The notes: generated by a model not told the origin, from the letters alone. A DNA stretch of 32,000 bases from Candidatus Syntropharchaeum caldarium (GCA_001766815.1 LYOS01000002.1:202377-234376); one strand, 5' to 3'. Counted from the first letter of the stretch, positions 15,736 to 23,118 are shown. Translations and numbers: made by a program.

Positions 15736-16209
15736 TCATTTCATTCCAGATAAGACCTCGTATAGCATTTTAAGTGCAGTTTCAGCAGTCATTTCTCTGT
15801 TACTTTTTCTATCGCCTGTAAAATGATACGTTTTTACTATTCTTTGATCTTCTGTTACGATTGCGATATATACCAGCCCAACAGGTTTTACAGGCGTTGC
15901 TCCACCCGGGCCTGCTATTCCCGTTACTCCTATACTCACATCTGCCTCGCTCACTGCTTTTGCACCTTCTGCCATTTCAAGGGCACATTCAGAACTCACC
16001 GCCCCATACCGCTCCAGAGTCGTATCCTTTACACCAATAATCTTCTTTTTCAGCTCATTTGAGTATGTCACGTACGCGCCCAGAAAATAATCTGAACTGC
16101 CCGGAACGCTGGTTATCCTGTATGAAATAAGTCCGCCTGTGCATGATTCTGCAACTGTAAGTTTGAGTTTCTTTTCGCTGAGTAAATCACCTATCGCTTC
16201 CTCTATCAT
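15736..16209 (-). CDS. pncC: CinA C-terminal domain protein / nicotinamide-nucleotide amidohydrolase PncC
   Basis: 157 aa with AESCTGGL, GVTGIAGPGGA and GLVYIA, which are hallmark CinA-C/PncC motifs. Confidence 0.85.
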   Translation of the reverse strand: MIEEAIGDLLSEKKLKLTVAESCTGGLISYRITSVPGSSDYFLGAYVTYSNELKKKIIGVKDTTLERYGAVSSECALEMAEGAKAVSEADVSIGVTGIAGPGGATPVKPVGLVYIAIVTEDQRIVKTYHFTGDRKSNREMTAETALKMLYEVLSGMK

Positions 16210-16232
16210 CTAAAACAGCTCACATCATTTTT

Positions 16233-16240
16233 CTATATAG
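16233..16240 (-). promoter_or_regulatory. TATA-like box for the pncC-like gene
   Basis: CTATATAG lies 24-31 nt upstream of ATG 16209 on the minus strand, consistent with a leaderless or short-leader archaeal transcript. Confidence 0.35.
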
Positions 16241-16321
16241 AACCGTTAGCTATATTGTTAAAAAAAGTTTGGGGGATATTTTGATTTTACCAGCTTGATG
16301 GGTCGATATTGATTGGAATAA

Positions 16322-16423
16322 CGTTTATATGGTGGGGTTGAGAGAAGGGTTTATGATCCGTATGGGTTGAACGAGGAAGAGATTAGGGTGGTGGAGGGAA
16401 AGTATGATAAAAGATATGCCTGA
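16322..16423 (+). pseudogene. Remnant resembling the C-terminal tail of a restriction-modification / type IIG-like methyltransferase
   Basis: A short open frame with no start codon reads RLYGGVEERVYDPYGLNEEEIRVVEGKYDKRYA*. The VY-x-x-YGL-x-EEEI-x-x-VEG pattern recalls the conserved C-terminal tail of many RM/BREX-type N6-adenine methyltransferases. It overlaps the helicase start. Confidence 0.25.
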
Positions 16424-19211
16424 AGAGCTACCAATTGAAGTATTAGAGACTCGATATGGATTGTGGAATTCTTACGTCATGACCCTTAAGAATAAGGGGT
16501 ACAAAGAAATTTGGTATCCACAAATCCAAGCATTTGAAAATGGAGCTTTAGATAACGATAATTTTATATTTATATCCTCTCCAGGCTCGGGAAAAACACT
16601 TGTTGCAGAAGTCATATTAATACACTCATTTTTGAAGTCTACTAAAGCTGGTGCGTACTTGGTCCCTCTTAACGAACTTGCTAATGAGATATATGATGAT
16701 TTTAAAGAAAGAATGGAATATCCGGAAATAGGCATTCACGTTACCAAATCTACGATGGATGATGAAAATTTATCAGAACTTCAGAGATCAAACATCATGA
16801 TAATGACCTATGAGAAGTTTGATTACCATCTTCGCAACCATCCAGAGCTTATTTCAGATTTGGGGGCTGTGGTAATTGACGAGTTTCACATGATCTCAAA
16901 TAAAGATCGTGGAGCAAAACTTGAGCTTATACTTGCACAGTTGATGCACAGGTTTCCTAATATCCGCATCGTTGGTTTATCTGCTGTAGTACCGAATGGA
17001 GACGAGATTAGTGATTGGCTACACGCCAAGCTCTGTGATACCAGTGATTGGAGAAAGAACCCATTATATGAGGGAGTTTATGACCATCGAAACAAAGTGA
17101 TACGATTTTACGATCACCCTGAAAGACTATCCAGTGAAGAAACTATAGGAGATTATGAGCGTAATCCAACACATAATCTAACCATAGATTTTATTATGAA
17201 AGAAATTAGTCGAGAGGGGCTACCCCAAACGCTAATTTTTGTACCTAAAAGAAAAGATGCGAGAGATTTTGCAGCGGAAATCCAAAGATGTCTTACAGAA
17301 GAAATAAAAGAGAGGGTAGATTCATATAAGCTCGATAAGATTGCCACTGACCTTGGAAATTTGGAGGGAAGTGATACAAAGACATTAAAAGGACTTATAG
17401 AAGCGGTGAAAAACGGGATTGCTTTTCATCACGCTGGACTTGGATCTGAGATAAAAAGAGTTGTGATGGATGCATTCAGGAATCAAGATCTTTTGGTCAT
17501 GATCTCAACTACTACACTTTCTGCGGGCGTGAATCTTCCGGCAAAGAGGGTTATTATTTCCGAACCAAGAATCGGAGGAAGGGGTAATTCTGGGAGGGAC
17601 TTAACCGTAGCAGAGTACAAAAATCTTGCTGGAAGGGCTGGGAGACCCAAATACACAGATGAACATGGGGAGTGTGTTATTATCTCTAAAACACCGATAT
17701 TTGCCGAATCATACAAAAATAGGTACATTTTAGCAGAACCAGAGGAGATAGAAAGCAGGATAGATCTTTCTGAAGATTATGGTAGTTTATTAAACTTACT
17801 TCGAGATTATCCATCGGTAGATAAACTTGTAAAGATTATGGAGAAGACATTTTATGGGTACAAAGGTCTCAACCATGAGGATCTTCGATTGAGTGTCGAG
17901 ATAGGAGTGGAAAAGTTAGAAAATTGGGACTTTGTGGAAAGAGATGGAGAACTATTTAATTTAACGGAACTTGGTAAAAGTGTATCAAAACAGATAATAA
18001 ATCCGTTTAGCGCACATATTATACTAAGAAGCTTGCGAAATTACTTAGATAGAGATATCGACCAGGGATTGATACAGGACATTTTACTAACGGTATGTAG
18101 CACTCCAGAATTTGATGAAAGTAACAGATTTTGGAGACCAGGATATTATCCAAACCGAGAAGAGGTGAAAAAGAAATTTGGGTTAGATCCTCTTGATTTA
18201 AAAGAAGTGGATCGGGTCATTTTAACAACCGAAATAATTAAGAAATACATCTCGGAGGAGAGTTACTCTGAAATTTTCAAGATAGAGGGGCTGGATGCTG
18301 AATATTGGGCACCCTCTGACATAAAAGAACGGATCGCCCCGAGGTTTTCCACTACGATTAGAGCGATGCAGCAAATAATAGAAGAGAGCGAGACTGAACT
18401 GCATAATAAATTTGGTGAACTGCTCGATAAACTTGGAATAATGACGTTATATGGAATAAAAGAAGAGCATGTTGATTTTGTCAGGAAAGGTATCACGTCA
18501 GATAGAAATATGATAATATTTCTTGATAAGATTGGTATTGCCGATCCATCAAAACTTTTAAATGTAGATATCAGGTGGTTAAGCGCACAACTGGCTGAAA
18601 AAGCATTAAAGCTTAAACGGCGTGCAGTTTACAATTTGCTTGAAGATCCTGAAAGAGAAAAGGAATTAATACTGTTAGAAGCTTATGAGAAGGGTATTGA
18701 ACTAAGTTTGTTTGAGAACCTCTTTACTTCAAGTGAAAATCAATTTTGGTTCGCTGTTAAGAATATACTAAGCCATATGGATGATATCTTTGAGGTACAC
18801 GATCATCACGTAGGATCAGATTCAATACCAGAGGCAGATGTATATCTCAAAAATGAAGATGGGAGTCTGTTAAAGGGCAGTGATGGGAACCCGATAAAGG
18901 TATGTCTCGAATGTAAATCAACTAGATCACTGGATAAACCTGTAAAAACCAGCACCGCTCTTGAAGTTTTGAAGAAATGCCCGGAAGGGAAATATACTTC
19001 TCGTGTTGTTATTGGGACTCCAAGTTTTGAGGGGGATGCTGGAAGAAGGGCTAAAGAACACGGGATTCTTTTGGTTCCGGTTACGGTCTTCGCTAGGCTC
19101 TTTTTACTTAAGGAAGCGAGTAAAATAGATGCTAAAATTATTGAGACGACCCTACAAAAAACAGGAGAGCTGACAATTGAGAAATTAAACGAGAACTTAA
19201 AAGGTGGTTGA
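16404..19211 (+). CDS. Hel308/Ski2-type SF2 (DExH) helicase fused to a C-terminal PD-(D/E)xK (Mrr-cat-like) nuclease domain
   Basis: 935 aa. Helicase motifs: I SSPGSGKT, II VVIDEFH, III GLSAV, V TTTLSAGVNLPA, VI YKNLAGRAGRP. A WH/ratchet-like middle region follows. The C-terminal roughly 165 aa carry IPEAD(812)VYL ... KVCLE(836)CK(838) ... TPSFEGDAGRRAKEHGILLV. GGTGGAGGG precedes the ATG. The coding sequence is AT-rich relative to the flanks. Confidence 0.85.
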   Translation: MIKDMPEELPIEVLETRYGLWNSYVMTLKNKGYKEIWYPQIQAFENGALDNDNFIFISSPGSGKTLVAEVILIHSFLKSTKAGAYLVPLNELANEIYDDFKERMEYPEIGIHVTKSTMDDENLSELQRSNIMIMTYEKFDYHLRNHPELISDLGAVVIDEFHMISNKDRGAKLELILAQLMHRFPNIRIVGLSAVVPNGDEISDWLHAKLCDTSDWRKNPLYEGVYDHRNKVIRFYDHPERLSSEETIGDYERNPTHNLTIDFIMKEISREGLPQTLIFVPKRKDARDFAAEIQRCLTEEIKERVDSYKLDKIATDLGNLEGSDTKTLKGLIEAVKNGIAFHHAGLGSEIKRVVMDAFRNQDLLVMISTTTLSAGVNLPAKRVIISEPRIGGRGNSGRDLTVAEYKNLAGRAGRPKYTDEHGECVIISKTPIFAESYKNRYILAEPEEIESRIDLSEDYGSLLNLLRDYPSVDKLVKIMEKTFYGYKGLNHEDLRLSVEIGVEKLENWDFVERDGELFNLTELGKSVSKQIINPFSAHIILRSLRNYLDRDIDQGLIQDILLTVCSTPEFDESNRFWRPGYYPNREEVKKKFGLDPLDLKEVDRVILTTEIIKKYISEESYSEIFKIEGLDAEYWAPSDIKERIAPRFSTTIRAMQQIIEESETELHNKFGELLDKLGIMTLYGIKEEHVDFVRKGITSDRNMIIFLDKIGIADPSKLLNVDIRWLSAQLAEKALKLKRRAVYNLLEDPEREKELILLEAYEKGIELSLFENLFTSSENQFWFAVKNILSHMDDIFEVHDHHVGSDSIPEADVYLKNEDGSLLKGSDGNPIKVCLECKSTRSLDKPVKTSTALEVLKKCPEGKYTSRVVIGTPSFEGDAGRRAKEHGILLVPVTVFARLFLLKEASKIDAKIIETTLQKTGELTIEKLNENLKGG

Positions 19212-19233
19212 ATGTTACGCCAATAGCCCTTGA

Positions 19234-19644
19234 ATGAGGTTTAGTATGAAAACATCTGATAAAATTGCAGAAGATTGCCGTGAAAAACGGGAGCGACACA
19301 GTTCTTTTAGAAATTTAGATTCACAATTATCGGTAGTCGAAAAATTAAAAGATGAAGCAGATAAAGAATTGGCGAATTATTCAGAAGAGCTGATTTCAGA
19401 CTGGATACCTATTTATTATTATAACTTAGCATTGAATAGCATTGTTTCCAGAAATCGAAAACAGAATTACTACAATAGCAACACTGGAAATTTCGAAAGA
19501 AGAGTGATAAAAATGGACCCCTTAGAAATAGAATGGTTAAAATTTCTGATACAGATAAGACACATACAAATCCATAATGGGGGTATAGTTGATAAAAAAA
19601 TTTATGGGAGCGATGCGATCATTCTCACATCTAAAAGTCTCTGA
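19234..19644 (+). CDS. Small helical protein with an R-x4-H (HEPN-like) motif; putative effector/partner of the helicase-nuclease
   Basis: 136 aa, or 132 aa from ATG 19246, which has GAGGT 5 nt upstream. It lies 22 nt downstream of the helicase stop on the same strand and shares its AT-rich composition. The motif LIQIR(109)HIQIH(114)NGG resembles the RNxxxHG-type HEPN active-site motif. No other family was recognised. Confidence 0.4.
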   Translation: MRFSMKTSDKIAEDCREKRERHSSFRNLDSQLSVVEKLKDEADKELANYSEELISDWIPIYYYNLALNSIVSRNRKQNYYNSNTGNFERRVIKMDPLEIEWLKFLIQIRHIQIHNGGIVDKKIYGSDAIILTSKSL

Positions 19645-19796
19645 ATATTCAATAGGTTCCTAGTGGACAGCAGATTCGACGATGATCGAGGTAGCGAAAA
19701 AGATTGTTCTGAAAATGAAAACAATAGTAGAAAAAGAAGTAACGAAATCAGATAAATCTGAAATTGAAATATTATTTAAGCCTTAAGGATCCTAAA

Positions 19797-20612
19797 ATGC
19801 CATCAAATCCACTGAACCCCATCAAAAAACCGAAAGGAGGAACTCTATTTCTCCTATTCACAGCCCTGGGTCTCGTTCTCGTCCTTTTTATCTCCATCAC
19901 ACTTTTTGATATGTTCTACAGGCAGGCAGAAGACCTCCCTCGTCTTTTCAGTGCTGCAAGGGATCCTGTTGTTCTGACCGCGATCGGGGTGAGTATCGCT
20001 GCCACGACGTGTTCCACGCTCATTGCATTCACGTTCGGTGTTCCGCTGGCTTATCTTCTTGCAAGAAAGAACTTCCCAGGGAAGAGCCTTGTAGAGGGGA
20101 TAATTGATATTCCCATGATGATACCGCATGTTGTTGCCGGGATCGCACTCTATGGGGTTTTGATGCGCTCTGGGGTGATCGGTGCACCGTTTGATATGCT
20201 TGGTGTTACGCTTGTCGATGCGTTCTCTGGGATTGTGCTTGCGATGCTCTTCATGAGCCTGCCGTATCTTGTCGATACTGCGAGGGAGGGGTTCAGGAGT
20301 GTGGATGAGCGGTTGGAGAATGTCTCGCGCTCGCTTGGGGCGTCTCCCTGGCAGACATTCAGGAGGGTCTCGTTCCCGCTCGCATTCTCATCGATCTACA
20401 ATGGCTGCATCCTTGCCTGGGCGCGGGGGATAAGTGAGTTCTCAGCGGTCCTCATCGTCGCGTACTTCCCGCGGTCTGCCCCTATCCTGATATACGAACG
20501 CTTCACCTCGTATGGCTTATCGAGTTCAAGGCCGATTGCGATCCTCTTTGTCGTGATCTGTCTCGTACTCTTCACACTCCTCAGACTCCCTGAATGGAGG
20601 AGGAGGCGATGA
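19797..20612 (+). CDS. ABC transporter permease, molybdate/tungstate/sulfate (ModB/WtpB/CysT) type
   Basis: It has multiple TM helices and an EAA-loop region (ERLENVSRSLGASPWQTFRRVSFPL). The track start is TTG 19764, but ATG 19797 (MPSNPL) is preferred. ATGA overlap with the ATPase gene. Confidence 0.85.
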   Translation: MPSNPLNPIKKPKGGTLFLLFTALGLVLVLFISITLFDMFYRQAEDLPRLFSAARDPVVLTAIGVSIAATTCSTLIAFTFGVPLAYLLARKNFPGKSLVEGIIDIPMMIPHVVAGIALYGVLMRSGVIGAPFDMLGVTLVDAFSGIVLAMLFMSLPYLVDTAREGFRSVDERLENVSRSLGASPWQTFRRVSFPLAFSSIYNGCILAWARGISEFSAVLIVAYFPRSAPILIYERFTSYGLSSSRPIAILFVVICLVLFTLLRLPEWRRRR

Positions 20613-21670
20613 TCAGGATAAGAGACCTTGAGCGAAGCTGGAGAGAGTTCAGGATAGAGGATATCAACCTCGCGATCGATCGGGGCGAGTACTTTGTGAT
20701 TCTTGGACCGACCGGTGCTGGAAAGACGCTTCTTCTCGAGCTCATAGCAGGATTCTATCTACCGGATGGGGGTGAGATCTGGATCGATGGGGTGAATGTG
20801 ACAGATCTTGCGCCTGAAGAGCGGGGGGTTGGGTTTGTATATCAGGATTACGCGCTCTTTCCACATCTCACCGTGAAGGAGAACATAGAGTTTGGATTGC
20901 GAGTTAAAAAACTTCCAGAACCCGAGATCAGAAGATCTGTATCGGAGATGATGGAGCTACTTGGAATTGAAGACCTCAAAGATCGCTATCCAGATACCCT
21001 TTCAGGTGGCGAGCGTCAGAAGACCGCGATCGCAAGAGCACTCATCCTGAAACCCGATCTCCTACTCATGGATGAGCCGTTCAGCGCGCTCGATCTACGG
21101 ACAAAGCAGAGGATGCAGGATGAGCTGAAGAAGATCCACAGAGAGTCAGGCGTAACGATGGTACATGTGACCCATGATCAGACAGAGGCAATGGTGATGG
21201 CAGATCGGATCGGCGTCATGATGGAGGGGAGGATCGTTCAGGTTGGAGGGGTTCGTGAAGTCTTCAATAAGCCCTTAAACGAGAGGATTGCAGAGTTTCT
21301 TGGGGTTGAGAATGTACTTGAAGGTGTCATTTCAGAGGTAGATGATGGGCTTTCGATCATAGACATTGGAGGTATCGAGATATCTGCTGTCACTGATCTG
21401 GAGGTTGGCTCCAGAGTCAACGCTTTTCTGCGACCCGAGGAGATCACGATATCAAAAGTCTCACAGAAGACGAGTGCGAGAAACAATATAGAGGCAAAAA
21501 TAGAGAAGATCGTGAATCTCGGGGCAGTGGTCAGAATAGAGCTTGATTCTGGACTTGTTGCACTGACAAGCAGGCGATCGGCAGAAGAACTTGGACTTGA
21601 GAGAGGTGTGGAGGTTTATGCCTCCTTCAAGGCGACAGCGGTTCATGTTGTGAGGCGGGGCTCAAAATAA
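20609..21670 (+). CDS. ABC transporter ATP-binding protein with C-terminal TOBE/Mop-like domain (ModC/WtpC type)
   Basis: Walker A GPTGAGKT, signature LSGGERQK, Walker B LLLMDEPFSALD and an H-loop VTHD, followed by a roughly 110-aa C-terminal TOBE-like extension. ATG 20609 overlaps the permease stop (ATGA) and is preferred over ATG 20594. Confidence 0.9.
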   Translation: MIRIRDLERSWREFRIEDINLAIDRGEYFVILGPTGAGKTLLLELIAGFYLPDGGEIWIDGVNVTDLAPEERGVGFVYQDYALFPHLTVKENIEFGLRVKKLPEPEIRRSVSEMMELLGIEDLKDRYPDTLSGGERQKTAIARALILKPDLLLMDEPFSALDLRTKQRMQDELKKIHRESGVTMVHVTHDQTEAMVMADRIGVMMEGRIVQVGGVREVFNKPLNERIAEFLGVENVLEGVISEVDDGLSIIDIGGIEISAVTDLEVGSRVNAFLRPEEITISKVSQKTSARNNIEAKIEKIVNLGAVVRIELDSGLVALTSRRSAEELGLERGVEVYASFKATAVHVVRRGSK

Positions 21671-23085
21671 GTCCGCAAAAAGACTTTAAAATCCTCTTCT
21701 TCAAGAAGATCAAAGATCTTTTTTCCTTCAATAATTGCAAAATCTGCATTTTTGAGGTTCTTACCGAGTGTACCCTTTCTCAAATTCGCACCCAAAAAAT
21801 CTTTTGCATCTGTGTACTTTCTCTCAATATCAACGAGATACCTGCCATCTTTGATATGGATTCCGTAGGTTGCCCCCTCGTGTTTTGATCTAAACTTTGC
21901 TGCATGTCTTCTCTTCCAGACGGGTGGTCCCCAGTGTTTTTTTATGGCTGGTAGCGTTGCAACCTCGAGTTCAAGAAGTATCACGGCATGGTGACGACCT
22001 GCCCAGACGGCGTCCCGATAAACCCTGAAGCCCTCGCGATGGAGTAACTCGGTTGCACCGGTTGCAGAGCGCCTGAGCTGCGGATAGAGTATATCCTCAA
22101 CAACTGGTGGTCTATCAAACGCAATGAAAATAAATCGTGTTCCGCGCCTGGATGCGATCTCGTCAAATTCATCGATTTCAACTGGTGCAGGTTCTTTCGG
22201 AAAGAAGAGATCGATCGATGGCGATTCAAGAAAACGGTGTGCACCATCGATGAACCTGCCAAAATTCTCGATAGAGAGTGCTGCTGCCACATTTCGCATC
22301 GGATCAACAGGATCGATCACAATGAGTGGGTCAGCCCCTTCATACTTTCCGTGCGATTCGATATCGATCCGCATACCCGCTTTCCATGAGTTTGCAGCCT
22401 CTTTTAAAACCTTTAGAAATGAGCCATAGTGTATGACCAGAAGCTCTGTCAGATATCCAGAGAAGCCCTGGCGCTTCAATTCAGAGCCATAAACCCCAAT
22501 ACCCCGCATGAACTGTTTAAGCAGGAGTACCTCATCCTCAAGTCCAGCGATTTTTGAGAGGACGTACTGGTTGTGAAAGGGCGTGCGGTCAACGGCAGAC
22601 TCAATCTTCGCTGGATCGGTGACTGCAAAGCACGGCACAATATCAACCTCGTACTTTCCCCCCATCCTGTCCCCAAATACCGCCTTTATGTATGGGTGCT
22701 CTGCATACTCCTTCTCATAAGATATACAGTAAAACTCCTCGTCACTGTAGTCCTGTTTCACAACGTACTTCCCAATCTCAATCCCGTTAAGCTCAAGCTC
22801 AGCCCTCGTCTGGTTGGCTTCAAAGAGCATGAATAGATCAAGGTCATGCTCACCAGAAACCCACGTGCCGCGGGCAGCAGATCCAACAAGCATCACTTCA
22901 ATCTCAATAAAAAGTGATGCGGCTGCGCTGTATATTTTATCTGTGATAAAACGTGCAAAACGCTCAAGACGTTCTACCTCTGCCTGATCAGGCTTAACCT
23001 TCTTCAGGACTTCTTTGAGAATCTGATGGGCCCGCTGAGATTCGAACTCAGGATCCCCGCCGTGTGAAGGCGATGTCATAACCAA
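21643..23085 (-). CDS. cca: CCA-adding enzyme (archaeal class I tRNA nucleotidyltransferase); start codon unresolved
   Basis: It has the catalytic motif LVGSAARGTW..DLDLF, and length and sequence are typical of archaeal Cca. The first roughly 20 codons of the track ORF (TTG 23085 / ATG 23079) lie inside the tRNA-Val gene. The homologous N-terminus starts near ILKEVL (ATT 23022), and no ATG/GTG/TTG is in frame there. Confidence 0.85.
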   Translation of the reverse strand: MVMTSPSHGGDPEFESQRAHQILKEVLKKVKPDQAEVERLERFARFITDKIYSAAASLFIEIEVMLVGSAARGTWVSGEHDLDLFMLFEANQTRAELELNGIEIGKYVVKQDYSDEEFYCISYEKEYAEHPYIKAVFGDRMGGKYEVDIVPCFAVTDPAKIESAVDRTPFHNQYVLSKIAGLEDEVLLLKQFMRGIGVYGSELKRQGFSGYLTELLVIHYGSFLKVLKEAANSWKAGMRIDIESHGKYEGADPLIVIDPVDPMRNVAAALSIENFGRFIDGAHRFLESPSIDLFFPKEPAPVEIDEFDEIASRRGTRFIFIAFDRPPVVEDILYPQLRRSATGATELLHREGFRVYRDAVWAGRHHAVILLELEVATLPAIKKHWGPPVWKRRHAAKFRSKHEGATYGIHIKDGRYLVDIERKYTDAKDFLGANLRKGTLGKNLKNADFAIIEGKKIFDLLEEEDFKVFLRTYFEPRLTT

Positions 23086-23100
23086 CTAGACCACGGGCCC
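23027..23100 (-). tRNA. tRNA-Val: tRNA-Val (anticodon CAC), no genomically encoded CCA
   Basis: The 74-nt reverse complement reads GGGCCCG-TG-GTCT..GAC-A-TCGCC-TTCACAC-GGCGG-GGATC-CTGAG-TTCGAAT-CTCAG-CGGGCCC-A. This gives a perfect 7-bp acceptor stem, 5-bp anticodon and T stems, and a TTCGAAT T-loop. The anticodon loop TTCACAC gives CAC. The discriminator A is followed by TCA. Confidence 0.9.
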
Positions 23101-23118
23101 AAAAAATTGACAACCACC

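What the first reader, a model, noticed from the sequence alone, without database searches (positions are those of the whole stretch)
16210..19796. AT-rich 3.5 kb island with a two-gene helicase-nuclease + HEPN-like module: candidate undescribed archaeal defence system
Composition drops sharply inside this interval. Hand counts give 20/60 GC for line 16561-16620 and 21/60 for 18001-18060. The flanks give 33/60 (15901-15960) and 32/60 (20161-20220). The island sits between a housekeeping pncC-like gene and an ABC permease. It holds exactly two co-oriented genes, 22 nt apart: a 935-aa SF2 helicase with a C-terminal PD-(D/E)xK nuclease, and a 132-136-aa protein with an R-x4-H motif. Helicase plus nuclease is the logic of known anti-virus systems: Hachiman (HamA nuclease + HamB Hel308-like helicase, as I recall), Hna and Nhi. 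I do not recognise a single-polypeptide Hel308-Mrr fusion paired with a small HEPN-like protein as a described system. I saw no integrase, flanking tRNA or direct repeats, so the acquisition mechanism is unknown.
Basis: partly seen in the sequence, partly recalled or inferred. Interest (0 to 1): 0.85.

Follow-up and report, generated by a model that had tools for sequence, protein, structure and literature searches.

The report
Mobile Hel308-nuclease gene plus dead neighbour
The AT-rich island is real and carries an intact, horizontally mobile gene for a complete Hel308 DNA helicase fused to a restriction-enzyme-type nuclease, probably a stand-alone anti-virus/anti-plasmid enzyme, but the small "HEPN-like" neighbour is a broken gene that does not travel with the helicase, so this is not a two-gene system.

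Summary
GC is 0.372 in 16210-19796 against 0.459 elsewhere (z = -7.5), and both ORFs exist. The window is from Candidatus Syntrophoarchaeum caldarius.

The 935-aa protein is a complete five-domain Hel308 helicase (residues 19-745) with an added C-terminal FokI/Mrr-like PD-(D/E)xK nuclease (746-935). The conserved catalytic residues are E810, E836 and K838, not D812.

It belongs to a rare archaeal family:
- 34 clusters among 5.8 billion proteins, and about 7 of 185,579 species representatives.
- Members occur in Syntrophoarchaeum, Methanoperedenaceae and haloarchaea, including two plasmids.
- They lie beside restriction-modification genes, toxin-antitoxin pairs, integrases and transposases.
- A 91.6% identical DNA copy sits in an unrelated context, and the homology stops at the ORF ends.
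- No adjacent gene is conserved.

The small ORF is a decayed member of a very rare HEPN-like family of 215-218 aa. Here it has two internal deletions, a frameshift in an A7 run and an in-frame TAG. The sister genome keeps an intact 183-aa version. Intact relatives elsewhere lie without any helicase.

Verdict: a single-gene nuclease-helicase that is a candidate defence gene, resembling Hachiman with the nuclease fused in cis, or Hna. The defence function is inferred, not shown. The two-gene module is not supported.

The parts
16210..16403 (+). Upstream non-coding region of the helicase gene. The left edge of the block shared with the sister Syntrophoarchaeum genome is at 16250. A TATA-like TTTATAT lies at about 16325-16331.
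   Evidence: 96.3% nt identity to L014 starts at 16250, and a transposase lies upstream in L014. Homology to the L004-L008 copies starts only at 16429. Sequence read. The promoter assignment is inference only.
16404..19211 (+). Intact 935-aa gene for the Hel308-Mrr nuclease-helicase (NCBI name: ski2-like helicase, Ca. Syntrophoarchaeum caldarius).
   Evidence: ORF. 100% identical to P0001. dN/dS is 0.27 against P0002 and 0.26 against L014, so it is under purifying selection.
16458..17723 (+). RecA1 and RecA2 motor domains (residues about 19-440). They contain Q40, Walker A G61-x-G63-K64-T65 (K64 = 16593-16595), DEFH D159/E160 (16878-16883) and motif VI G410-R411-x-G413-R414-P415.
   Evidence: Pfam DEAD 6e-29 and Helicase_C 1e-8. 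Motif residues are invariant in the 34-member alignment. PDB Hel308 matches 9b15 and 2p6r at E 8e-69 and 5e-66.
17724..18638 (+). Hel308 domains 3-5 (winged helix, ratchet and the helix-hairpin-helix-like domain 5; residues about 441-745).
   Evidence: The profile-profile alignment of the family with canonical Hel308 covers residues 19-745 against 11-720 (hhalign probability 100%, E 2e-126), including the domain-5 YG(V/L)-x-EE...GI...DL region. NCBIfam PRK02362 covers residues 26-733.
18639..19208 (+). C-terminal Mrr/FokI-like PD-(D/E)xK nuclease domain (residues 746-935). The catalytic candidates are E810 (18831-18833) and E836-C-K838 (18909-18917).
   Evidence: 11 of 23 family C-termini hit Pfam Mrr_cat, best 2.6e-5. 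AlphaFold model pLDDT 93.6. Foldseek top hits are the FokI cleavage domain (E 4e-4, TM 0.58), MspJI, AF1548, AspBHI and EcoT38I. E836 and K838 are invariant, E810 at least 90% conserved, D812 not conserved.
19234..19786 (+). Pseudogene of a rare HEPN-like protein. Frame 1 runs 19246-19593 (R-x4-H at 19558-19575). The frameshift is in the A7 run 19594-19600. The frame-2 continuation runs 19601-19783 with an in-frame TAG at 19661-19663, and the ancestral stop is at 19784-19786. Two in-frame internal deletions (17 and 22 aa) separate it from the 215-218-aa relatives.
   Evidence: Alignment to P0122-P0124. tblastn finds the C-terminus in the other frame. Sequence. The sister genome L014 has A6 and TGG, giving an intact 183-aa ORF. 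Motif conservation. Fold matches to HEPN toxins.
19797..21670 (+). ABC permease (likely true start ATG 19797) and TOBE-type ABC ATPase. These are host-like in composition and not part of the AT-rich island, but they are linked to it in both Syntrophoarchaeum genomes. The right edge of the shared block is at 21651.
   Evidence: Pfam BPD_transp_1, ABC_tran and TOBE. GC 0.53 and 0.50. Extent of L014 homology. dN/dS 0.11-0.14.

Best explanation
The island is a horizontally acquired segment that holds two unrelated accessory genes.

(1) An intact, selectively maintained gene encodes a stand-alone nuclease-helicase. It is a complete five-domain Hel308-type DNA helicase with a FokI/Mrr-like PD-(D/E)xK nuclease added after domain 5. 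Canonical Hel308 translocates 3'-to-5' (established knowledge). This is a member of a rare, patchily distributed archaeal family. The gene moves as a single unit among variable regions and plasmids rich in restriction-modification, toxin-antitoxin, integrase and transposase genes.

The most likely function, which is inferred, is single-gene defence against viruses or plasmids. The Hel308 motor would load on 3' single-stranded tails, forks or damaged and replicating foreign DNA and translocate using ATP. The tethered nuclease would cut the DNA it is tracking. This follows the logic of Hachiman (HamB helicase plus HamA nuclease) with the nuclease in cis, and of the single-protein Hna system.

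(2) A decaying copy of a very rare HEPN-like gene. It is already shortened in this lineage and freshly inactivated in this genome by a frameshift and a nonsense codon. It is neither required by nor associated with the helicase.

Shown: the architecture, the conserved catalytic residues, purifying selection, the sparse distribution, mobility as a single ORF, the lack of a conserved partner, and the pseudogene state of the small gene. Inferred: the defence role, the DNA substrate, and coupling between motor and nuclease.
For: Architecture:
- hhalign against canonical Hel308 covers all five domains.
- The best PDB and NCBIfam matches are Hel308.
- The nuclease domain matches Pfam Mrr_cat in 11 of 23 members.
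- Its model (pLDDT 93.6) matches FokI, MspJI, AF1548 and AspBHI.
- K64, D159/E160, E836 and K838 are invariant, and E810 is near-invariant.

It is not the housekeeping orthologue:
- It scores 365 bits against a cut-off of 887.
- Scores drop sharply from 464 to 288 bits between family members and canonical Hel308.
- Only about 7 species representatives of 185,579 carry it, one of them as a pseudogene.
- Two copies are on haloarchaeal plasmids.

Mobility:
- 91.6% nt identity to L004-L008 is confined to 16429-19214.
- GC is 0.37 against 0.46.
- Transposases abut the gene in L014, L009 and L018.

Defence or mobile-element neighbourhoods, from a census of 115 neighbour ORFs at 9 loci:
- N6_Mtase 6 times, type I S subunit 3 times, PDC-S11 3 times, and mad2/mad5.
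- Integrase 3 times, PLD-SNF2 with an Eco57I-type methylase twice, SLFN_AlbA_2 twice, plus HepT, a resolvase and a transposase.

Selection: dN/dS is 0.26-0.27, so the gene is functional but less constrained than the neighbouring ABC genes at 0.11-0.14.

No conserved neighbour.

Small gene: the lesions are documented. The family has only 8 representatives at E <= 1e-10 among 1.84 billion proteins. An intact homologue lies without a helicase.

Precedents: Hachiman as a Hel308-like sensor helicase plus nuclease (PMC12278908); Hna as a single protein with an SF2 helicase and a C-terminal PD-(D/E)XK nuclease (PMC13381803).
Against: - There is no experimental evidence for any member.
- The neighbourhood enrichment is qualitative. 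No background expectation was computed.
- In this window and in the Methanoperedenaceae locus the immediate neighbours are housekeeping genes.
- PADLOC recognises only the helicase core, as HamB-like, and nothing in the nuclease domain, so no named-system membership supports a defence role.
- No member was found on viral contigs or phage records, which neither supports nor refutes defence.
- I could not verify that S. caldarius has a separate canonical Hel308.
- A complete Hel308 with a nuclease could equally serve fork or repair processing.
Confidence: 0.55

Rival explanations
1. Two-gene defence module. The helicase-nuclease and the small HEPN-like protein work together as sensor and effector, in the manner of Hachiman- or toxin-type systems.
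For: The two genes are co-oriented and 22 nt apart, and both are AT-rich. Both are intact and adjacent in the sister genome L014. The small protein's family has a conserved R-x4-H-N motif and HEPN-like fold matches. Distant relatives hit the PADLOC candidate PDC-M14A.
Against: In this genome the small gene is broken by a frameshift, a TAG and two deletions, while the helicase stays under purifying selection. The pairing is seen only in two genomes that are 96% identical over the shared 5.4-kb block, so it reflects shared ancestry. The 87%-identical helicase has a different downstream gene, and DNA homology ends at the helicase stop codon. Downstream genes at the 10 other loci are mutually unrelated. 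The intact homologue P0124 and two distant relatives have no helicase nearby.
Confidence: 0.06
2. Accessory DNA-repair or replication-restart paralogue. This would be a Hel308 with a built-in structure-specific nuclease, following the logic of Hef or Dna2. It would process stalled forks or recombination intermediates for the host or for the plasmids and integrated elements that carry it, with no immune role.
For: It retains all five Hel308 domains, including domain 5. Canonical Hel308 is a fork-processing repair helicase (established knowledge; PMC12278908 discussion). In the window and in L017 it lies beside housekeeping genes. Plasmid-borne copies could serve plasmid replication.
Against: The distribution is extremely sparse and patchy, with a pseudogenised copy in L044. 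The gene is transferred as a single unit between unrelated contexts. It recurs next to restriction-modification, toxin-antitoxin and integrase genes. The nuclease is of the restriction-enzyme type (Mrr/FokI/MspJI) rather than the XPF/Mus81 or RecB type usual in repair fusions.
Confidence: 0.2
3. Motor-driven type IV (modification-dependent) restriction enzyme. The Mrr-type domain would cut foreign DNA that carries a modification, and the helicase would act as a translocase, as in McrBC- or SauUSI-like enzymes. This would explain a lone gene with no cognate methylase.
For: Mrr_cat hits, and fold matches to the modification-dependent enzymes MspJI and AspBHI. The copy in this window stands alone with no methylase in the flanks examined.
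Against: No recognisable modified-base reader domain is present, such as Mrr_N, SRA or DUF3427; the whole N-terminal 745 residues align to Hel308. Many other copies lie next to methyltransferases. That fits defence-island clustering but gives no specific support. FokI, which is not modification-dependent, is the best fold match.
Confidence: 0.15

Closest known systems
Archaeal Hel308/Hjm DNA repair helicase
   Same: It has all five domains: RecA1, RecA2, winged helix, ratchet and the helix-hairpin-helix domain. It is about 31% identical at profile level across residues 19-745. The best PDB and NCBIfam matches are Hel308.
   Different: It has an extra 190-residue Mrr/FokI-like nuclease. It scores far below the equivalog cut-offs (365 against 887). 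It carries family-specific motif variants (MTYEKFD, YKNLAGRAG). It is rare, mobile and sometimes plasmid-borne rather than near-universal and vertically inherited.
Hachiman (HamB helicase + HamA nuclease)
   Same: It combines a Ski2/Hel308-like helicase with a PD-(D/E)xK nuclease. PADLOC's best hits are HamB models at up to 148 bits. Neighbourhoods are of the defence-island type. The published mechanism, a helicase that senses DNA damage or ends and licenses a nuclease, is the natural model (PMC12278908).
   Different: The nuclease is fused in cis at the C-terminus and is Mrr/FokI-like. HamA was not among the top 50 fold matches. Precomputed Pfam annotation showed no DUF1837/HamA gene next to members at the five loci that had it. 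The helicase is much closer to archaeal Hel308 (236 bits) than to HamB (83 bits) in the PDB. HamB's N-terminal domain is absent.
Hna single-protein defence system
   Same: The overall plan is the same: one polypeptide with an N-terminal SF2 helicase and a C-terminal PD-(D/E)XK nuclease, acting alone (PMC13381803).
   Different: No sequence link was found. No protein named Hna appeared among the 60 PDB sequence matches, and the nuclease domain had no PADLOC hit. Hna is bacterial, whereas this family is archaeal and derived from Hel308. The resemblance is convergent architecture, not membership.
Mrr / MspJI / FokI restriction nuclease domains
   Same: The fold and catalytic motif are shared. There are Pfam Mrr_cat hits and Foldseek matches to FokI, MspJI, AF1548 and AspBHI.
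   Different: The domain is attached to a helicase rather than to a DNA-recognition or modified-base reader domain. The first acidic residue is E within a P-E motif, and the core motif is E-C-K.
HepT/DUF86-type HEPN toxins (for the small gene)
   Same: The family shares an R-x4-H motif followed by N, and a helical bundle. Top Foldseek hits are YutE and HepT toxins, with probability up to 0.98.
   Different: No Pfam HEPN model reaches threshold (best E 0.013 on single distant members). Foldseek E-values are weak (0.04-0.5) with TM 0.35-0.56. No MNT antitoxin partner is present. The full-length family is 215-218 aa with extra helices. The window copy is a pseudogene.

Membership tests
Hel308/Hjm orthologue (housekeeping) | Five-domain Hel308 architecture | tested here: met
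   hhalign of the family against a canonical Hel308 profile: probability 100%, E 2e-126, residues 19-745 against 11-720.
Hel308/Hjm orthologue (housekeeping) | Score above the curated equivalog cut-off | tested here: not met
   NCBIfam PRK02362 365.6 bits against cut-off 887; helicase_Hel308 274.6 bits against 1200.
Hel308/Hjm orthologue (housekeeping) | Conserved across the lineage at a syntenic position | tested here: not met
   Full-length members occur in only about 7 of 185,579 species representatives. Flanks differ even between two genomes that are 96% identical over the shared block. Two copies are on plasmids.
Hel308/Hjm orthologue (housekeeping) | It is the genome's only Hel308 | not tested
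   The rest of the S. caldarius assembly could not be searched with these tools.
Hachiman (HamAB) | HamB-family helicase | tested here: inconclusive
   PADLOC HamB models hit at up to 148 bits, but only over the RecA core. PDB HamB scores 83 bits against 236 bits for Hel308.
Hachiman (HamAB) | Adjacent HamA (DUF1837) nuclease gene | tested here: not met
   No DUF1837 appears among the precomputed Pfam annotations of neighbours or in the window flanks. The neighbour census lists only the top 25 families, so a single hit at the other loci cannot be fully excluded.
Hna | Single polypeptide with an N-terminal SF2 helicase and a C-terminal PD-(D/E)XK nuclease | tested here: met
   The Hna architecture is taken from PMC13381803.
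Hna | Sequence homology to the Hna family | tested here: inconclusive
   The nuclease domain has no PADLOC hit. No Hna appears among the top 25 PADLOC hits or the 60 PDB hits. I could not confirm that either library contains an Hna model.
Mrr-type (type IV) restriction enzymes | Mrr_cat PD-(D/E)xK catalytic domain | tested here: met
   Pfam Mrr_cat in 11 of 23 members. Foldseek matches to FokI, MspJI, AF1548 and AspBHI. E810, E836 and K838 are conserved.
Mrr-type (type IV) restriction enzymes | Modified-DNA reader domain and modification dependence | tested here: not met
   There is no reader domain; residues 1-745 are Hel308. Modification dependence itself cannot be tested here.
Type I restriction HsdR | Encoded together with hsdM and hsdS | tested here: not met
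   M and S genes lie nearby in only 2 of 11 contexts (L004, L044) and not in the window.
HEPN superfamily (small gene) | R-x4-6-H motif | tested here: met
   R144, H149 and N150 of P0124 are at least 90% conserved over 16 to 28 relatives. They equal R109/H114 of the window ORF.
HEPN superfamily (small gene) | HEPN helical-bundle fold or a significant profile match | tested here: inconclusive
   The model has pLDDT 89.8. The top Foldseek hits are HEPN proteins (probability 0.98-0.87), but with E 0.04-0.5 and TM 0.35-0.56. Pfam HEPN hits are only at E of about 0.013.
HEPN superfamily (small gene) | Intact coding sequence in this window | tested here: not met
   A frameshift at 19594-19600, a TAG at 19661-19663 and two internal deletions.

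The most novel reading that the evidence does not exclude
Hel308-derived helicases may be a modular immune chassis with interchangeable effectors. Three forms would fit this: an Mrr-type nuclease fused in cis in this archaeal family, a caspase-like domain fused at the N-terminus in a widespread bacterial family seen in passing, and HamA acting in trans in Hachiman. The window's gene keeps all five Hel308 domains at about 31% profile identity. It could therefore be a near-ancestral stage showing how a housekeeping repair helicase was recruited to antiviral defence in archaea.
Probability: 0.3. Interest if true: 0.7.

Novelty: new variant of a known kind. Interest (0 to 1): 0.48.

Why it matters
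Nuclease-helicase proteins are a recurring solution in prokaryotic immunity: Cas3, Hachiman, Hna, Nhi and Gabija. Archaeal examples are poorly charted.

This family is a clean case of a full Hel308 repair helicase that has gained a restriction-type nuclease and become a mobile single-gene cassette. If it is shown to be protective, it would add an archaeal single-gene system. It would also give a concrete evolutionary link between Hel308 and the Hachiman helicase, a relationship so far only suggested (PMC12278908).

As a working lesson, a neat two-gene "module" in one genome dissolved once relatives were examined.

Tried and rejected
- PADLOC, Pfam and NCBIfam on the small ORF gave only noise-level hits: PDC-M10A at E 0.006, Aromatic_hydrox, and haemagglutinin in the PDB.
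- PADLOC on the nuclease domain alone found nothing.
- The viral-contig scan and phage-record tblastn for the family found nothing.
It was rerun with the full alignment.
- A search for flanking direct or inverted repeats that could mark insertion found only short chance-level matches.
- An Rfam scan found only the tRNA-Val.
- I tested whether downstream genes at other loci are cryptic homologues of the small protein. blastp all-against-all found nothing. Pfam found nothing relevant. hhalign against two L011 neighbours bearing R-x4-H aligns at the motif but is not significant.
- I tested whether the bacterial helicases sharing the family's motifs are its closest relatives. They are not; they score higher against canonical Hel308 (440 against 374).
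- I considered HsdR replacement in type I systems because of the hsdM/hsdS neighbours in L004 and L044. I rejected it because it is neither general nor true of the window.
- I considered that the frameshift might be an assembly error. The neighbouring TGG-to-TAG change argues for real decay, but no reads were available to check.
- I ran no further search on finding the organism's canonical Hel308, because no suitably close query was available.

Full report
**Observation.** The composition dip is real and sharp. GC is 0.372 over 16210-19796 and 0.459 in the rest of the window. The interval holds a 935-aa ORF (16404..19211, +) and, 22 nt later, a 136-aa ORF (19234..19644, +). They lie between a CinA/PncC-family gene on the minus strand and an ABC permease with a TOBE-type ATPase. 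The 935-aa protein is 100% identical to a "ski2-like helicase" of Candidatus Syntrophoarchaeum caldarius.

**The large protein.** Pfam finds only the DEAD and Helicase_C domains. The best NCBIfam and PDB matches are archaeal Hel308: PRK02362 at 365 bits over residues 26-733, and 9b15 and 2p6r at E 8e-69 and 5e-66.

- A profile-profile comparison of the 34-member family with 29 canonical Hel308 proteins aligns residues 19-745 to positions 11-720 (probability 100%, E 2e-126). This includes the helix-hairpin-helix domain 5. The nuclease is therefore an addition to a complete Hel308, not a replacement of its last domain.
- Of the C-terminal 190 residues, 11 of 23 family members hit Pfam Mrr_cat, best 2.6e-5.
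- A model of this domain (pLDDT 93.6) matches the FokI cleavage domain (E 4e-4, TM 0.58), MspJI, AF1548, AspBHI and EcoT38I.
- Across the family K64, D159/E160, E836 and K838 are invariant and E810 is at least 90% conserved.

**The family is an accessory, mobile gene.**

- Scores fall far below the Hel308 equivalog cut-offs (365 against 887).
- In a search of 5.8 billion clustered proteins there are 34 full-length relatives of 911-947 aa at 30-87% identity. Scores then drop from 464 to 288 bits at ordinary Hel308 proteins of 700-750 aa.
- A scan of one genome per species (185,579 species) with family-specific motifs found full-length members in one other Syntrophoarchaeum genome, four haloarchaea (one fragmented into a pseudogene) and a partial Methanoperedenaceae copy. 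Halorarum salinum was found through the protein search.
- Two copies are on haloarchaeal plasmids.
- A copy 87% identical in protein and 91.6% in DNA occurs on metagenomic contigs. There the DNA homology covers only 16429-19214, which is the ORF, and the flanks are unrelated.
- dN/dS is 0.26-0.27, against 0.11-0.14 for the adjacent ABC genes. The gene is maintained by selection but is less constrained than its neighbours.

**Neighbourhoods.** The 11 independent contexts are as follows.

| Locus | Neighbours |
|---|---|
| L004-L008 | Type I M and S subunits, MNT-HepT and DUF4258/DUF2283 toxin-antitoxin pairs |
| L009 | Mutator transposase, YhcG nuclease, integrase |
| L012, L016 | Integrases, a PLD-SNF2 plus Eco57I/MmeI-type methylase pair, DUF4268, PDDEXK_4, AAA_15 |
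| L013 | DpdA, Mom, a methylase, SLFN_AlbA_2 (plasmid) |
| L018 | IS240 transposase |
| L044 | Type I M and S subunits, integrase fragments |
| L094 | A methylase and a restriction endonuclease (plasmid) |
| L014 | Two transposases directly upstream |
| Window, L017 | Housekeeping genes |

This is the signature of defence islands and mobile elements. I did not compute a background expectation, so the enrichment is qualitative.

**No conserved partner.** The genes immediately downstream are 95, 373, 229 plus 512, 395, 161 and 125 aa, an integrase and a transposase. None resembles another by blastp, and none has a relevant Pfam hit.

**The small ORF.**

- Its only close relatives are 215-218 aa.
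- A profile search of 1.84 billion representatives finds just 8 at E <= 1e-10.
- Against them the window copy lacks 17 and 22 internal residues, including a conserved N-F-Q-N segment.
- tblastn shows that the missing C-terminus is still encoded at 19601-19783 in the next frame.
- The shift lies in an A7 run at 19594-19600, and the continuation contains an in-frame TAG at 19661-19663.
- The sister Syntrophoarchaeum genome has A6 and TGG at these two sites, giving an intact 183-aa ORF.
- So the 136-aa ORF is the stump of a gene freshly inactivated in this genome.

The family does look HEPN-like. R-x4-H-N is near-invariant. A model of the 217-aa homologue (pLDDT 89.8) has HEPN proteins as its top fold matches, namely YutE/DUF86 and HepT toxins, but with weak E-values of 0.04-0.5. 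No Pfam HEPN model reaches threshold.

The intact homologue on the only contig long enough to read lies between NosD-like and DUF2099 genes with no helicase. Two distant relatives from metagenomes are zinc-ribbon fusions beside toxin-antitoxin genes, again with no helicase.

**The shared block in the sister genome.** The sister genome shares 96.3% identity with the window only over 16250-21651, which covers the helicase, the small gene and the two ABC genes. Upstream it has transposases, and downstream it has fructose-1,6-bisphosphatase and CDC48. The AT-rich pair therefore sat next to the GC-rich ABC genes before the two genomes diverged, and the surroundings have since been rearranged.

**Interpretation.** The conserved, selected, mobile unit is the helicase-nuclease alone. 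Three things make a single-gene defence enzyme the best-supported reading:

- its restriction-type nuclease;
- its distribution;
- its neighbourhoods.

The proposed mechanism is inferred. The Hel308 motor would load on 3' tails, forks or damaged DNA of an invader and translocate, and the tethered nuclease would cut. This is Hachiman's logic with the nuclease in cis (PMC12278908) and the plan of Hna (PMC13381803).

Three rivals remain. An accessory repair or replication role has a probability of about 0.2. A motor-driven modification-dependent restriction enzyme has about 0.15.

**Comparison with known systems and novelty.**

- It is not a Hel308 orthologue, because both the cut-off and the distribution tests failed.
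- It is not Hachiman. No HamA was found, the nuclease is of a different type, and the helicase is closer to Hel308.
- There is no demonstrable sequence link to Hna.
- My searches of the held literature found no description of a Hel308-Mrr fusion family. That library is incomplete.

I rate it a new variant of a known kind: nuclease-helicase defence candidates. Interest is moderate.

**Limits.**

- No experiments exist for any member.
- There are no statistics on neighbourhood enrichment.
- The presence of a canonical Hel308 elsewhere in the genome was not checked.
- The whole-protein structure was not predicted.
- The pseudogene lesions have not been verified against reads.

Noticed in passing
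L045:9128-12223, L035:8999-12235, L053:9113-12262, L062:9128-12223 (about 60 bacterial loci): Bacterial proteins of 1031-1078 aa share the family's motifs MTYEKFD and YKNxAGRAG. Each has an N-terminal caspase-like domain (PADLOC 'caspase', E 1e-9 to 1e-16) fused to a helicase that aligns over all five Hel308 domains (hhalign E 3e-56 against canonical Hel308). HamB scores are only core-level, and no HamA hit appeared among the neighbours scanned. This is a second 'Hel308 plus effector' architecture, in bacteria, which are usually said to lack Hel308.
   Followed up: partly
window 16250-21651 vs L014:2450-7852: The sister Syntrophoarchaeum genome shares only this 5.4-kb block (96.3% nt). It has two transposases upstream, and FBPase and CDC48 downstream, in place of CinA and the CCA-adding enzyme. 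This indicates rearrangement around the block, possibly IS-mediated; MAG misassembly was not excluded.
   Followed up: partly
window 19764-19797: The mechanical TTG start of the ABC permease ORF (19764) overlaps the tail of the pseudogene, whose ancestral stop is at 19784-19786. The real permease start is probably ATG 19797.
   Followed up: partly
window 23025-23101 (-): A tRNA-Val (CAC) overlaps the 5' end of the long ORF call for the CCA-adding enzyme (21643..23085), so that gene must start further downstream. The tRNA is 3.2 kb from the island and not at its boundary.
   Followed up: partly
L011:7109-7912 and L011:11606-13144: Both genes flanking the helicase at this locus carry R-x4-H-like motifs visible by eye: RIRHALFH in a CBS-domain protein and YRNKVVHDD in a 512-aa protein. 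hhalign places the small-protein profile on these motifs but without significance (E 0.08 and 0.3).
   Followed up: partly
L044:9983-12423: The Natrialbaceae copy of the helicase-nuclease is split into three ORFs of 322, 180 and 237 aa, so it is apparently a pseudogene. It lies next to type I M and S genes and integrase fragments.
   Followed up: no
L012:682-7429 and L016:513-7933: Two haloarchaeal loci share a homologous pair next to the helicase: a PLD-SNF2 helicase and a roughly 1100-aa Eco57I/MmeI-type methylase, at 30-38% identity. An integrase is also shared. This is probably a co-resident restriction-like system.
   Followed up: no
L004:6010-6297: The 95-aa ORF that starts right at the helicase stop codon in the 87%-identical copy contains a GSYGRGE motif. 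It looks like a truncated minimal nucleotidyltransferase (MNT antitoxin) fragment.
   Followed up: no
P0132, P0135, P0149; L096:1426-2916: The RHILxHNGGxVD domain of the small-protein family also occurs in zinc-ribbon fusions, two of which hit the PADLOC candidate PDC-M14A at 4e-15. It also occurs at the C-terminus of a 1007-aa DUF1156/N6_N4 methylase, and next to VapC-type toxin-antitoxin genes. This suggests a conflict-system effector domain with no Pfam model.
   Followed up: partly
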